This document shows positions 1-1,226 of a DNA stretch of 1,315 nt, piece after piece. A program made the translations under genes and the position numbers. Every line of letters starts with the position of its first letter. The stretch's first letter is position 1. Under the pieces are notes generated by a model that searched no databases, was not told where the DNA came from, and was given only the letters and a program-made list of their open reading frames with translations. Source of the DNA: Naegleria gruberi (Eukaryota); the NCBI GenBank assembly GCA_000004985.1, contig GG739449.1; one strand, given 5' to 3'.

Positions 1-98
1 TTGTTATTAATACATGAGTCTGTGGAGAAGAGAAAGGTTTGGTGGTTTCGGGTTCTTGCTTTTGCTTTTTGTTTTTAGGACCATCACCTACAGTTAGA

Positions 99-138
99 CG
101 TTTTGTGCATTTTTTCATTATTGTTTGGCGGGAAGATC
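99..138. repeat. Left arm of an imperfect inverted repeat flanking the gene (cgttttgTGcat[15-nt insertion]tggcgggaaGatc).
   Basis: The reverse complement of 1201..1226 is cgttttgcattggcgggaaaaatcgt. It matches the left arm as cgttttg(99..105), cat(108..110), tggcgggaa(126..134) and atc(136..138). The left arm carries a 15-nt insertion (tttttcattattgtt, 111..125). The GC-rich 9-mer tggcgggaa is unusual in a sequence with about one-third GC. Confidence 0.45.
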
Positions 139-198
139 CCCCGAAATCCCAAACAACAACTTTTATTTCTTGTTGGAATTCCAAGTATTAAAATCCAC

Positions 199-206: not shown

Positions 207-317
207 ACAAAATAAAAGCAATAAATTCAAATGAACATGTAAATTTCAACTTATTTTTATTCATGGATCATTTGGATGGTTGACTGGATATGGGCCACTT
301 AAAATCTTGAGAAAAAA

Positions 318-650
318 ATGTCAAACCAATTACTGTCCAACAGTGGAGTCCTTGTACAGGAAATTGTTGCCTTCCTTGCAAATGATGAAGATAAATCCAA
401 CATTGGTCAAATTCTCATGATGAGATTAGTTTGCAAAGATTGGAACGAAACTTTTATTAATTCTCATGATTTCTGGCACAGTATGATGATTGCCAATTTG
501 GATAAGGGTATGAAAGCAAGAGGAATTGAAGAGAAGGTTGAAATTCTTTCACATCCCAATCGAAACAATACTCAGTTCATGTTAAATTGTATTCGAAACT
601 GTTTTCTTGCTCAACAATCGATTGACTGTTTGAAATCAGTGGAAGCCTAA
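318..650 (+). CDS. F-box domain-containing protein, N-terminal segment (110 aa).
   Basis: The translation contains LVQEIVAFLANDEDKSNIGQILMMRLVCKDWNETFINSHDFW. This matches the F-box consensus (…eiLleIlsrLdpkdLlrlrlVsKrWrslvdsdrlW). The hydrophobic spacing fits, the V-C-K-x-W core is present and the trailing W is conserved. The canonical LP dipeptide is missing. The start context aaaaATG is typical of nematodes. The product ends …SVEA followed by the TAA stop. Confidence 0.6.
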   Translation: MSNQLLSNSGVLVQEIVAFLANDEDKSNIGQILMMRLVCKDWNETFINSHDFWHSMMIANLDKGMKARGIEEKVEILSHPNRNNTQFMLNCIRNCFLAQQSIDCLKSVEA

Positions 651-656
651 CAATCA

Positions 657-1181
657 ATGTGTTATGAGCCTGCTATCCTTAACGAATCCAATGACGAATT
701 AGTTTCCGAAATGATTCGCCAACTTTCACCTTACATCTTTATCCAGAAAACCTCTTTTGATTTCTTTTCTTATGATCAGTCAGATTGTGAATATGATTTT
801 ATCATTCCAAATATTCAAGGAAATACCGAATTGACTCAACTATATTTTAAAGTTTATAGATGCGATTATGGAAGTGGTAATGGTTCACTACTAAGATCTA
901 TTGTAGTAATTTTCCAAGAAGAAAAAGAAATTCTAAAAAATGATGTTTGCTACGAGTATGATGGCTCACGCTCAGAATACGTTGCAGATAAGGAGATGAT
1001 TAAGGTTGTTATGGAGAGAATTGGGTTGAGTGCAGAAATGATTAATTCTAAAGCTTGTTTCGATGAGTTTATGATTGCATTGTATTGTAAAGCAGTTGTG
1101 GGAATAATTCCTATTGCTCTCTGTGAAAGAGATTTGTTTTATATGGATAGAACAAGCAGAATAAAAGATATTGAAGAATAA
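657..1181 (+). CDS. Uncharacterised C-terminal region (174 aa from the first ATG; the frame is open from 651), probably the F-box-associated substrate-recognition part of the same gene.
   Basis: It lies in the same frame as the upstream F-box ORF, 6 nt after its stop. It has no promoter or A-rich start context of its own (caatcaATGt). The ORF is long for such an AT-rich sequence. Its TAA stop at 1179..1181 overlaps AATAAA. I recognise no named domain. It contains three spaced Cys-x-Tyr-Asp/Gly motifs. Confidence 0.5.
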   Translation: MCYEPAILNESNDELVSEMIRQLSPYIFIQKTSFDFFSYDQSDCEYDFIIPNIQGNTELTQLYFKVYRCDYGSGNGSLLRSIVVIFQEEKEILKNDVCYEYDGSRSEYVADKEMIKVVMERIGLSAEMINSKACFDEFMIALYCKAVVGIIPIALCERDLFYMDRTSRIKDIEE

Positions 1182-1201: not shown

Positions 1202-1226
1202 CGATTTTTCCCGCCAATGCAAAACG
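1202..1226. repeat. Right arm of the inverted repeat (cgatttttcccgccaatgcaaaacg).
   Basis: See the left-arm entry. The arms are about 1.06 kb apart and enclose ATG 318 through poly(A) signal 1182. T-rich flanks (about 50..80 versus about 1235..1260 reverse-complemented) show a possible weaker extension of the similarity. Confidence 0.45.

What the first reader, a model, noticed from the sequence alone, without database searches (positions are those of the whole stretch)
640..665. One in-frame TAA splits an F-box gene, in a stop-CAR-YYA readthrough context
The F-box ORF (318..650) and the 174-aa downstream ORF (657..1181) share a reading frame and are separated only by TAA-CAA-TCA. That is three possibilities. 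(a) A recent nonsense pseudogene. This is the prior expectation, because nematode F-box families carry many pseudogenes. (b) An intron I failed to recognise. (c) Programmed or leaky stop-codon readthrough. The six nucleotides after the stop, CAA UCA, fit the stop-CAR-YYA motif, established for type I readthrough in tobamoviruses and also functional in animal cells. Readthrough would yield a short F-box-only isoform and a full-length F-box plus recognition-domain isoform from one mRNA, which would be a way to regulate an E3 adaptor.
Basis: partly seen in the sequence, partly recalled or inferred. Interest (0 to 1): 0.6.

Follow-up and report, generated by a model that had tools for sequence, protein, structure and literature searches.

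The report
Nonsense-interrupted F-box-like gene in Naegleria
One gene of a small Naegleria gruberi-specific family is cut in two by a genuine premature TAA stop, and it looks like an ordinary young pseudogene or truncated paralogue, not a case of programmed stop-codon readthrough.

Summary
ORF 318..650 and ORF 657..1181 share a frame and are separated only by TAA-CAA-TCA.

The window is a whole 1,315-bp scaffold of the amoeboflagellate Naegleria gruberi, not a nematode. The downstream ORF is the annotated NAEGRDRAFT_55004.

Four N. gruberi paralogues exist. Three of them align continuously across the stop, with Glu, Ile or Ser at the TAA column. The two ORFs are therefore one ancestral gene, the stop replaces a sense codon, and no intron is needed.

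An independent, roughly 99%-identical metagenome contig (L001) carries the same TAA, so it is not a sequencing error. L001 also carries a second in-frame stop in the upstream half (CAG to TAG at window 357).

The CAA-UCA after the stop does fit CAR-YYA. However:
- The CAA is an inherited Gln codon ("EQT" in the closest paralogue).
- About 1% of in-frame codon pairs in this gene fit the motif anyway.
- The stop is UAA, not UAG.
- The 5' context lacks the stimulatory adenines.
- There is no 3' RNA structure.

The F-box assignment is only sub-threshold.

Best reading: a young nonsense pseudogene or truncated paralogue. Programmed readthrough is unsupported but not formally excluded. Interest is low.

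The parts
318..647 (+). Upstream half of the ancestral gene (110 codons). It covers the N-terminal F-box-like region and a helical region, and it is not annotated in the public record.
   Evidence: The frame is open for 115 codons against 8-10 stops in the other frames, P about 5e-5. It is homologous to the N-terminal parts of N. gruberi paralogues P0003 and P0007. There is a sub-threshold Pfam F-box-like hit at residues 32-56. hhalign against F-box motifs gives 60.6% probability over 23 columns.
357..359 (+). Codon 14 (CAG, Gln). It reads TAG in the independent contig L001, making a second in-frame stop in that copy.
   Evidence: Alignment A1 shows C357T. The L001 context is TAG-GAA-ATT. The gene caller on L001 called only a 77-aa ORF starting at the ATG that corresponds to window 417.
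648..650 (+). Premature in-frame TAA that replaces a sense codon of the family.
   Evidence: This column is Glu in P0003, Ile in P0005 and Ser in P0007. The TAA is identical in the independent assembly L001.
651..656 (+). CAA-TCA, codons inherited from the ancestral reading frame (Gln-Ser) that happen to fit CAR-YYA.
   Evidence: The closest paralogue reads E-Q-T where the window reads *-Q-S. In this gene 3 of 283 in-frame codon pairs fit CAR-YYA.
657..1181 (+). Downstream half of the ancestral gene (174 codons). It is annotated alone as NAEGRDRAFT_55004 (XP_002668018.1). It encodes the C-terminal domain, which has no Pfam match.
   Evidence: 100% match to P0001. It is homologous to the C-terminal parts of P0003, P0005, P0007 and P0006/P0008. 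There is no Pfam hit. Its initiator Met aligns with a family-conserved Tyr.

Best explanation
Positions 318..1181 are a single intron-less gene of a small Naegleria gruberi-specific paralogous family. The family has an N-terminal F-box-like region, a variable linker and a C-terminal domain of unknown fold.

A point mutation in the variable linker turned a sense codon into TAA. The original codon was most simply GAA (Glu), as in the closest paralogue, or CAA/AAA/TAT.

Ribosomes that start at ATG 318 terminate at 648-650. They produce at most a 110-aa N-terminal fragment. The C-terminal 176 codons are no longer translated as part of that protein.

The locus is therefore a young pseudogene, with one lesion in strain NEG-M and two in the related isolate. 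The public annotation rescued its longer half as a 174-aa 'predicted protein'.

Shown here: one ancestral gene, a genuine stop, a sense codon in the paralogues, and a second stop in the other isolate.

Inferred: loss of function, and absence of translation of the downstream half.
For: - Paralogues P0003 (54% identity, query 28-238), P0005 (query 63-276) and P0007 (query 12-274, 281 aa against 287) align collinearly across the stop. They have E, I and S at that column.
- The TAA is present in an independent ENA metagenome assembly, so it is neither a sequencing error nor private to one clone.
- That same contig has a further nonsense change, CAG to TAG at codon 14, in an otherwise conserved frame. 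This is what relaxed constraint predicts. Only about 5% of random substitutions create stops.
- The substitutions between the two copies are 4 non-synonymous (including the nonsense) and 2 synonymous, plus an in-frame 9-nt indel at the C-terminus. Omega is about 0.5-0.7, not distinguishable from 1.
- No intact 287-aa orthologue appears among 5.8 billion cluster representatives or 1.84 billion 50% representatives.
- UAA with a GCC 5' context and no downstream structure is an efficient-termination setting.
Against: - Neither copy has a frameshift in 861 nt of ORF, whereas the 451 nt of flanks carry 4 indel events. The decay is therefore very recent, or some constraint persists.
- The TAA is shared by two haplotypes or strains that differ by about 1%, so it has persisted for some time.
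- An ATG sits 6 nt after the stop, at a position where the paralogues have a conserved Tyr. The downstream half could therefore be expressed on its own.
- The CAR-YYA context could allow a low level of readthrough.
- With only 6 substitutions, dN/dS cannot demonstrate neutrality.
- No expression data could be examined.
Confidence: 0.6

Rival explanations
1. Functional truncated gene. After the nonsense mutation, the C-terminal domain (ORF2, 174 aa) continues to be made on its own from ATG 657. This would be through an internal transcription start or through reinitiation. The F-box-like half is left to decay. This is what the public annotation implies.
For: - ORF2 is intact in both copies, while the extra stop in L001 lies in ORF1.
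- An ATG lies 6 nt after the stop and replaces a conserved Tyr.
- Other family members are modelled without the N-terminal region: P0005 at 215 aa, P0008 at 147 aa and P0006 at 102 aa.
- There are no frameshifts in ORF2, whereas the flanks are indel-rich.
Against: - ORF2 shows 3 non-synonymous changes, 1 synonymous change and a C-terminal indel between the two copies. Omega is about 0.7, so purifying selection is not evident.
- From the ancestral promoter, a scanning ribosome meets ATG 318 and many further ATGs before reaching 657.
- Reinitiation after a 110-codon ORF is inefficient in eukaryotes (general knowledge).
- One extra stop falling in ORF1 (39% of the length) rather than ORF2 does not discriminate between the readings.
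- The short paralogue models may themselves be annotation artefacts.
Confidence: 0.2
2. Leaky or programmed type-I-like readthrough. UAA-CAA-UCA lets a fraction of ribosomes insert an amino acid at 648-650. This would give a short F-box-like isoform and a full-length 287-aa isoform from one mRNA.
For: - The six bases after the stop fit CAR-YYA. Chance expectation is 0.2% by base composition and about 1% among in-frame codon pairs.
- The motif is documented as a readthrough stimulator in plant and yeast systems (PMC3159437).
- The stop and its context are identical in two independent copies.
- The downstream frame is still fully open.
Against: - The motif is defined with UAG. Type I is 'generally UAG-CAA-UYA', whereas here the stop is UAA.
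- The stimulatory adenines at -1 and -2 are absent; the sequence there is GCC.
- There is no 3' RNA structure, z = +0.87.
- The CAA is an inherited Gln codon, 'EQT' in the closest paralogue, so the motif needs no selection to explain it.
- All paralogues have a sense codon at this position.
- L001 has a second stop upstream, in the non-permissive context TAG-GAA-ATT. In that copy, full-length protein from ATG 318 would need two readthrough events.
- The region 552-903 is invariant between the two copies, so conservation of the stop carries no information.
- The literature search found no report of readthrough in Naegleria.
Confidence: 0.08
3. An unrecognised spliceosomal intron removes 648..650, so the mature mRNA encodes an uninterrupted protein.
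For: - N. gruberi has spliceosomal introns (PMC6142364).
- Many frame-preserving GT..AG pairs can be drawn around the stop, for example 639..668 (30 nt), 628..702 (75 nt) and 508..702 (195 nt, donor AGG|GTATGA).
Against: - The paralogue alignment is collinear through the whole region, and the window is already 3-4 residues shorter than the paralogues in this linker.
- Every candidate removes residues that align with paralogue residues, including the most conserved motif, Y-x-P-A-x-L-N-E.
- The candidate 'intron' sequence has zero other in-frame stops and is homologous to coding sequence.
- 30 nt is below usual spliceosomal intron sizes (general knowledge).
Confidence: 0.02
4. Sequencing or assembly artefact in a tiny low-coverage scaffold. 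On this reading the real genome has a sense codon.
For: The window is an entire 1,315-bp unplaced scaffold.
Against: An independent Illumina metagenome assembly (ERZ929261, contig k127_288808) has exactly the same TAA and surrounding bases, while differing elsewhere.
Confidence: 0.01

Closest known systems
Unitary or duplicated-gene nonsense pseudogene (a young disabled paralogue in a lineage-specific gene family)
   Same: Intact paralogues span the lesion. A single base change turned a sense codon into a stop. A second disabling mutation is present in a related isolate. The substitution pattern is compatible with neutrality.
   Different: The locus is very young, with no frameshift yet. The stop is shared by two diverged copies. 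The downstream half keeps an ATG right after the stop and is annotated as a gene. Loss of expression has not been shown.
Type I stop-codon readthrough signal of tobamoviruses (UAG-CAR-YYA; Skuzeski et al., Beier and Grimm, as summarised in PMC3159437)
   Same: The hexanucleotide CAA-UCA immediately 3' of the stop fits CAR-YYA and CAA-UYA.
   Different: The stop is UAA, not UAG. This is a cellular gene of a heterolobosean amoeba. There are no adenines at -1 and -2. The paralogues have a sense codon at this position. The related copy has an additional upstream stop. There is no evidence of selection on the context.
F-box proteins (SCF E3 substrate adaptors; Pfam PF00646 and PF12937)
   Same: The 'L-x-x-R-x-V-C-K-x-W ... 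W' stretch resembles helices 2-3 of the F-box. The architecture is an N-terminal F-box-like region followed by a C-terminal putative recognition domain. One paralogue (D2VPN9) is labelled an F-box domain-containing protein by UniRef.
   Different: All Pfam hits fall below the curated thresholds. The LPxE first half of the motif is not detected. No PDB relative was found. The C-terminal domain matches no known substrate-recognition family.

Membership tests
Type I (CAR-YYA) programmed readthrough site | The hexanucleotide CAR-YYA lies immediately 3' of the stop. | tested here: met
   651-656 = CAA TCA.
Type I (CAR-YYA) programmed readthrough site | A leaky stop codon of the class (generally UAG). 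| tested here: not met
   The stop is TAA. The class is described as UAG-CAR-YYA / UAG-CAA-UYA in PMC3159437.
Type I (CAR-YYA) programmed readthrough site | A favourable 5' context (adenines at -1 and -2). | tested here: not met
   645-647 = GCC. The criterion is taken from PMC3159437.
Type I (CAR-YYA) programmed readthrough site | The stop and its context are conserved among homologues, with purifying selection on the extension. | tested here: inconclusive
   The only orthologous copy (L001) is about 99% identical and invariant over 552-903, so it carries no information here. All paralogues have a sense codon. Omega downstream is about 0.7 from 4 substitutions.
Type I (CAR-YYA) programmed readthrough site | Measured readthrough product or ribosome density past the stop. 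| not testable with these tools
   No expression, ribosome-profiling or proteomic data are accessible. RNA-seq exists as PRJEB23822.
Nonsense pseudogene of a paralogous family | Intact homologues are collinear across the lesion, with a sense codon there. | tested here: met
   P0003, P0005 and P0007 span the junction, with E, I and S at the column.
Nonsense pseudogene of a paralogous family | The lesion is real and not a sequencing error. | tested here: met
   The same TAA is present in the independent contig L001.
Nonsense pseudogene of a paralogous family | Further disabling mutations have accumulated, or constraint is relaxed. | tested here: inconclusive
   A second stop (C357T) is present in L001 but not in the window. 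There are no frameshifts. Omega of 0.5-0.7 rests on 6 substitutions and has no power.
Nonsense pseudogene of a paralogous family | No functional product. | not testable with these tools
   This needs transcript, ribosome or proteome data.
F-box protein (Pfam PF00646 / PF12937) | The score reaches the Pfam gathering threshold. | tested here: not met
   ORF1 scores 13.6 bits against 24.3 (E = 0.06). Paralogue P0007 scores 14.9 bits against 20.5 (E = 0.025). P0003 has no hit.
F-box protein (Pfam PF00646 / PF12937) | Profile-level similarity over the whole 40-50-residue motif, including the LPxE half. | tested here: inconclusive
   hhalign of the family's N-terminal alignment against five remembered F-box motifs gives 60.6% probability. 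Only 23 columns align, all in the C-terminal half. A PDB profile search found no F-box protein. The AF2 model is too poor to use, with pLDDT 51.
F-box protein (Pfam PF00646 / PF12937) | Binds Skp1. | not testable with these tools
   This is a biochemical property.

The most novel reading that the evidence does not exclude
In N. gruberi NEG-M, UAA-CAA-UCA supports a biologically used low level of readthrough. One mRNA would then yield both an F-box-like-only fragment and a full-length adaptor-like protein. This would be the first cellular tobamovirus-type readthrough site in a heterolobosean. The second stop in L001 would then mark loss of the system in that isolate.
Probability: 0.06. Interest if true: 0.55.

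Novelty: new member of a known kind. Interest (0 to 1): 0.12.

Why it matters
Mostly this is an annotation correction. NAEGRDRAFT_55004 is not a stand-alone 174-aa gene. It is the downstream 60% of a nonsense-interrupted member of a Naegleria-specific F-box-like family with at least five loci.

It also shows why a post-hoc match to a short readthrough motif should not be over-read. About 1% of codon pairs in this gene fit the motif.

If readthrough were real, it would extend type-I signals to a deep-branching free-living protist. Nothing found here points that way.

Tried and rejected
- Phage DNA search of the whole window: no match.
- Exact-protein contig look-ups for P0001, ORF1 and P0003: nothing on record. 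Paralogue DNA, and therefore codon-level dN/dS along the family, could not be obtained.
- JGI metagenome scan with ORF2: only a spurious 21-residue match, L002. No further alleles or orthologues were found.
- Word-indexed protein searches found only the locus itself. The exhaustive HMMER search was needed to find the paralogues.
- AlphaFold2 on the 5-sequence alignment gave mean pLDDT 51 and pTM 0.43. I judged it unusable and ran no fold search.
- PDB profile searches with the whole family and with the N-terminal region: no meaningful hit.
- Literature searches for the locus tags, for the ENA project PRJEB11402 and for Naegleria readthrough: nothing relevant.
- Bare GT..AG enumeration gave 154 frame-preserving candidates. 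It is uninformative on its own, and the intron reading was rejected on the paralogue alignment.
- Downstream RNA structure as a readthrough stimulator: none, z = +0.87.
- Rfam and tRNA scans: only a sub-threshold SNORD33 hit (E = 0.5) and no tRNA.

Full report
**Observation**

The window contains ATG 318..TAA 650 (110 aa) and ATG 657..TAA 1181 (174 aa) in the same frame. They are separated by TAA(648-650)-CAA-TCA. The upstream frame is open for 115 codons (303..647), while the other two frames of the same stretch hold 8 and 10 stops. A stop-free run of that length has a probability of about 5e-5 by shuffling and 7.6e-5 from flank composition. The upstream ORF is therefore coding sequence, or recently was, and its sharing a frame with the downstream ORF is not an accident.

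**Origin**

The downstream ORF is 100% identical to 'predicted protein' NAEGRDRAFT_55004 (XP_002668018.1 / D2W6M8) of Naegleria gruberi. That protein lies on a contig of exactly 1,315 bp. The window is thus a whole, tiny, unplaced scaffold of the N. gruberi assembly. It is not nematode DNA. The public annotation covers only the downstream ORF.

**Is the stop real?**

The 90% cluster of that protein has a second member, P0002 (177 aa). It comes from an ENA metagenome assembly (ERZ929261, run ERR1078381) on a 1,994-bp contig, fetched as L001. L001 aligns with the whole window at about 99% identity and extends it by 613 bp on the left.

The bases GGAAGCC-TAA-CAA-TCA-ATG are identical in L001. The TAA is therefore not a sequencing error, and it predates the split of the two haplotypes or strains.

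The differences between the two copies are as follows:
- In ORF1, C357T changes CAG to TAG (Gln14 to stop).
- In ORF1, there is one synonymous change at 551.
- In ORF2, there are three non-synonymous changes (904, 909, 1104) and one synonymous change (1121).
- In ORF2, a 9-nt in-frame insertion before the stop adds Asn-Tyr-Lys.
- In the flanks, there are several substitutions and four indel events.

The gene caller on L001 accordingly called only a 77-aa ORF, starting at the ATG that corresponds to window 417.

**One gene or two?**

An exhaustive HMMER search of 1.84 billion representatives with the joined 287-aa translation found four N. gruberi paralogues:
- NAEGRDRAFT_46382 (P0003): 755 aa, 54% identity, aligned to query 28-238.
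- NAEGRDRAFT_75271 (P0005): 215 aa, aligned to query 63-276.
- NAEGRDRAFT_80777 (P0007): 281 aa, aligned to query 12-274, named 'F-box domain-containing protein' by UniRef.
- NAEGRDRAFT_72136 (P0008, with P0006).

Three of them cross the stop, which is query position 111. In the multiple alignment the window reads ...SVEA*QSMCYEPAILNE..., P0003 reads ...YKYEQTYVYNPAILNE..., P0005 reads ...EGIGNYVRTPATLNE... and P0007 reads ...NSSCEYVYAP....

The alignment is collinear. The TAA column holds Glu, Ile and Ser. The stop lies in a variable linker just before the most conserved motif of the family.

It follows that the two ORFs are halves of one ancestral gene, and that the stop replaces a sense codon. 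GAA to TAA is the simplest single step. No homologue outside N. gruberi was found, and no intact 287-aa orthologue exists in either protein collection.

**Intron**

A bare enumeration gives 154 frame-preserving GT..AG pairs around the stop, which is what any open frame would produce. All of them are contradicted by the paralogue alignment. The window is already 3-4 residues shorter than its paralogues in this linker, and every candidate removes residues that align with paralogue residues. The candidates include 639..668 (30 nt), 628..702 (75 nt) and 508..702 (195 nt). I reject the intron reading, pending RNA-seq.

**Readthrough**

CAA-UCA does fit CAR-YYA. Several results nevertheless argue against a selected signal:
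- The Gln codon after the stop is inherited. The closest paralogue reads E-Q-T where the window reads *-Q-S.
- Within this gene, 3 of 283 in-frame codon pairs fit CAR-YYA. A random nonsense mutation therefore lands in this context about 1% of the time. That is before allowing for the other known readthrough contexts that a reader might equally have noticed.
- The motif was defined with UAG. Type I is 'generally UAG-CAA-UYA', and adenines at -1 and -2 stimulate readthrough (PMC3159437). Here the stop is UAA and the preceding bases are GCC.
- The 123 nt after the stop fold no better than shuffles (z = +0.87).
- In L001 a second stop sits upstream in the context TAG-GAA-ATT. In that copy, full-length protein from ATG 318 would need two readthrough events, one of them without any motif.
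- The stretch 552-903 is invariant between the two copies, so 'conservation' of the stop context carries no weight.
- The literature search returned nothing on readthrough in Naegleria.

A low basal leak at this context cannot be excluded, and it would be an interesting footnote. Nothing indicates a programmed mechanism.

**Pseudogene versus truncated gene**

The nonsense change in L001 is what relaxed constraint predicts. About 5.4% of random substitutions in these ORFs create stops, so seeing one among six changes is unremarkable under neutrality and unexpected under selection. Omega is about 0.5 overall and about 0.7 for ORF2. With 6 substitutions it cannot be distinguished from 1, or from about 0.2.

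Two observations count against complete neutrality. Neither copy has a frameshift in 861 nt, while the 451 nt of flanks carry four indel events. Also, an ATG follows the stop by 6 nt, at a position where the paralogues have a conserved Tyr. A functional ORF2-only product, which is what the annotated model implies, therefore remains a serious rival.

That rival would need an internal transcription start or inefficient reinitiation, because ATG 318 and many further ATGs precede position 657.

My estimates are: pseudogene about 0.6, ORF2-only gene about 0.2, functional readthrough below 0.1, intron about 0.02 and artefact about 0.01.

**F-box**

ORF1 hits Pfam F-box-like at E = 0.06, scoring 13.6 bits against a cut-off of 24.3 (residues 32-56). 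Paralogue P0007 hits F-box at E = 0.025, scoring 14.9 bits against 20.5, over the homologous stretch. P0003 has no hit.

A profile of the three N-terminal regions found no F-box protein in the PDB. It gave 60.6% probability over 23 columns, restricted to the 'VCKxW...LW' half.

AlphaFold2 with the shallow alignment gave mean pLDDT 51, which is too poor for a fold search. 'F-box-like' is plausible, but membership is not established. The C-terminal domain has no known relatives.

**Context**

- The first 118 bases encode, on the minus strand, the N-terminus of a divergent neighbour gene (MKKCTKRL...). In L001 this continues as a 244-aa partial product with weak P-loop NTPase similarities.
- The decamer TTGGCGGGAA, which contains the E2F-type core GGCGGGAA (from my own knowledge), occurs at 125-134 (+) and 1208-1217 (-). 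None is expected by chance, and both copies are invariant in L001.

**Verdict**

The sequence observation is correct. The single-gene inference is confirmed by paralogues. The stop is genuine and replaces a sense codon. The most likely state is an ordinary young nonsense pseudogene, or an N-terminally truncated paralogue, in a lineage-specific F-box-like family. The readthrough reading rests only on a hexanucleotide that is inherited coding sequence. Interest is low. The practical outcome is a corrected annotation and a short list of decisive expression experiments.

Noticed in passing
window 125-134 (+) and 1208-1217 (-); longer imperfect inverted repeat 109-134 / 1208-1233: The decamer TTGGCGGGAA contains the E2F-type core GGCGGGAA. 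It occurs once in the divergent promoter region and once, inverted, just downstream of the gene. That is 2 matches against 0 in 200 shuffles, and both are invariant in L001. They could be shared cell-cycle promoter elements, or the ends of a duplicated or mobile segment that flanks the gene.
   Followed up: partly
window 1-118 (-), continued in L001 3-734 (-): A divergent neighbour gene starts at ATG 118-116 on the minus strand (MKKCTKRLTVGDGPKNKK...). The 244-aa partial product in L001 has only sub-threshold P-loop NTPase hits (AAA_22, NB-ARC, E about 0.01). The scaffold ends inside this gene.
   Followed up: partly
window 657-662 (ATG TGT), compared with paralogues in alignment A2: The Met-Cys that opens ORF2 aligns with a family-conserved Tyr-Val. 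CAATCA-ATGTGTTATGAG can be derived from a hypothetical CAATCATATGTG-TATGAG by a -1/+1 pair of indels 6 nt apart. That would be a compensated frameshift which created an in-frame ATG just after the stop.
   Followed up: no
window 173-190: This is a hypervariable patch in the intergenic region. There are 10 substitution columns and a 3-nt indel between the window and L001, within an otherwise ~99% identical alignment. It looks like a small replacement or inversion and not like point divergence.
   Followed up: no
window 1176/1177 (L001 about 1789-1797): L001 carries a 9-nt in-frame insertion (AAAATTATA) just before the ORF2 stop, which adds Asn-Tyr-Lys to the C-terminus. Three further indels (5, 12 and 1 nt) lie in the 3' flank.
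   Followed up: partly
paralogues P0005 (NAEGRDRAFT_75271, 215 aa), P0008 (NAEGRDRAFT_72136, 147 aa), P0006 (ENA, 102 aa): Several family members are modelled without the N-terminal F-box-like region. P0005 starts at the equivalent of window residue about 63. They may be similarly interrupted genes whose longest ORF was annotated, which would make this family pseudogene-rich. Their DNA could not be fetched.
   Followed up: no
window 410-421 and 459-470: There is an exact 12-nt direct repeat, AATTCTCATGAT, 49 nt apart inside ORF1. It is probably a chance or slippage product.
   Followed up: no
window 375-437 (+): A sub-threshold Rfam hit to the C/D-box snoRNA family SNORD33 (22.2 bits against a gathering score of 44, E = 0.5) lies inside ORF1. 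It is most likely chance.
   Followed up: no
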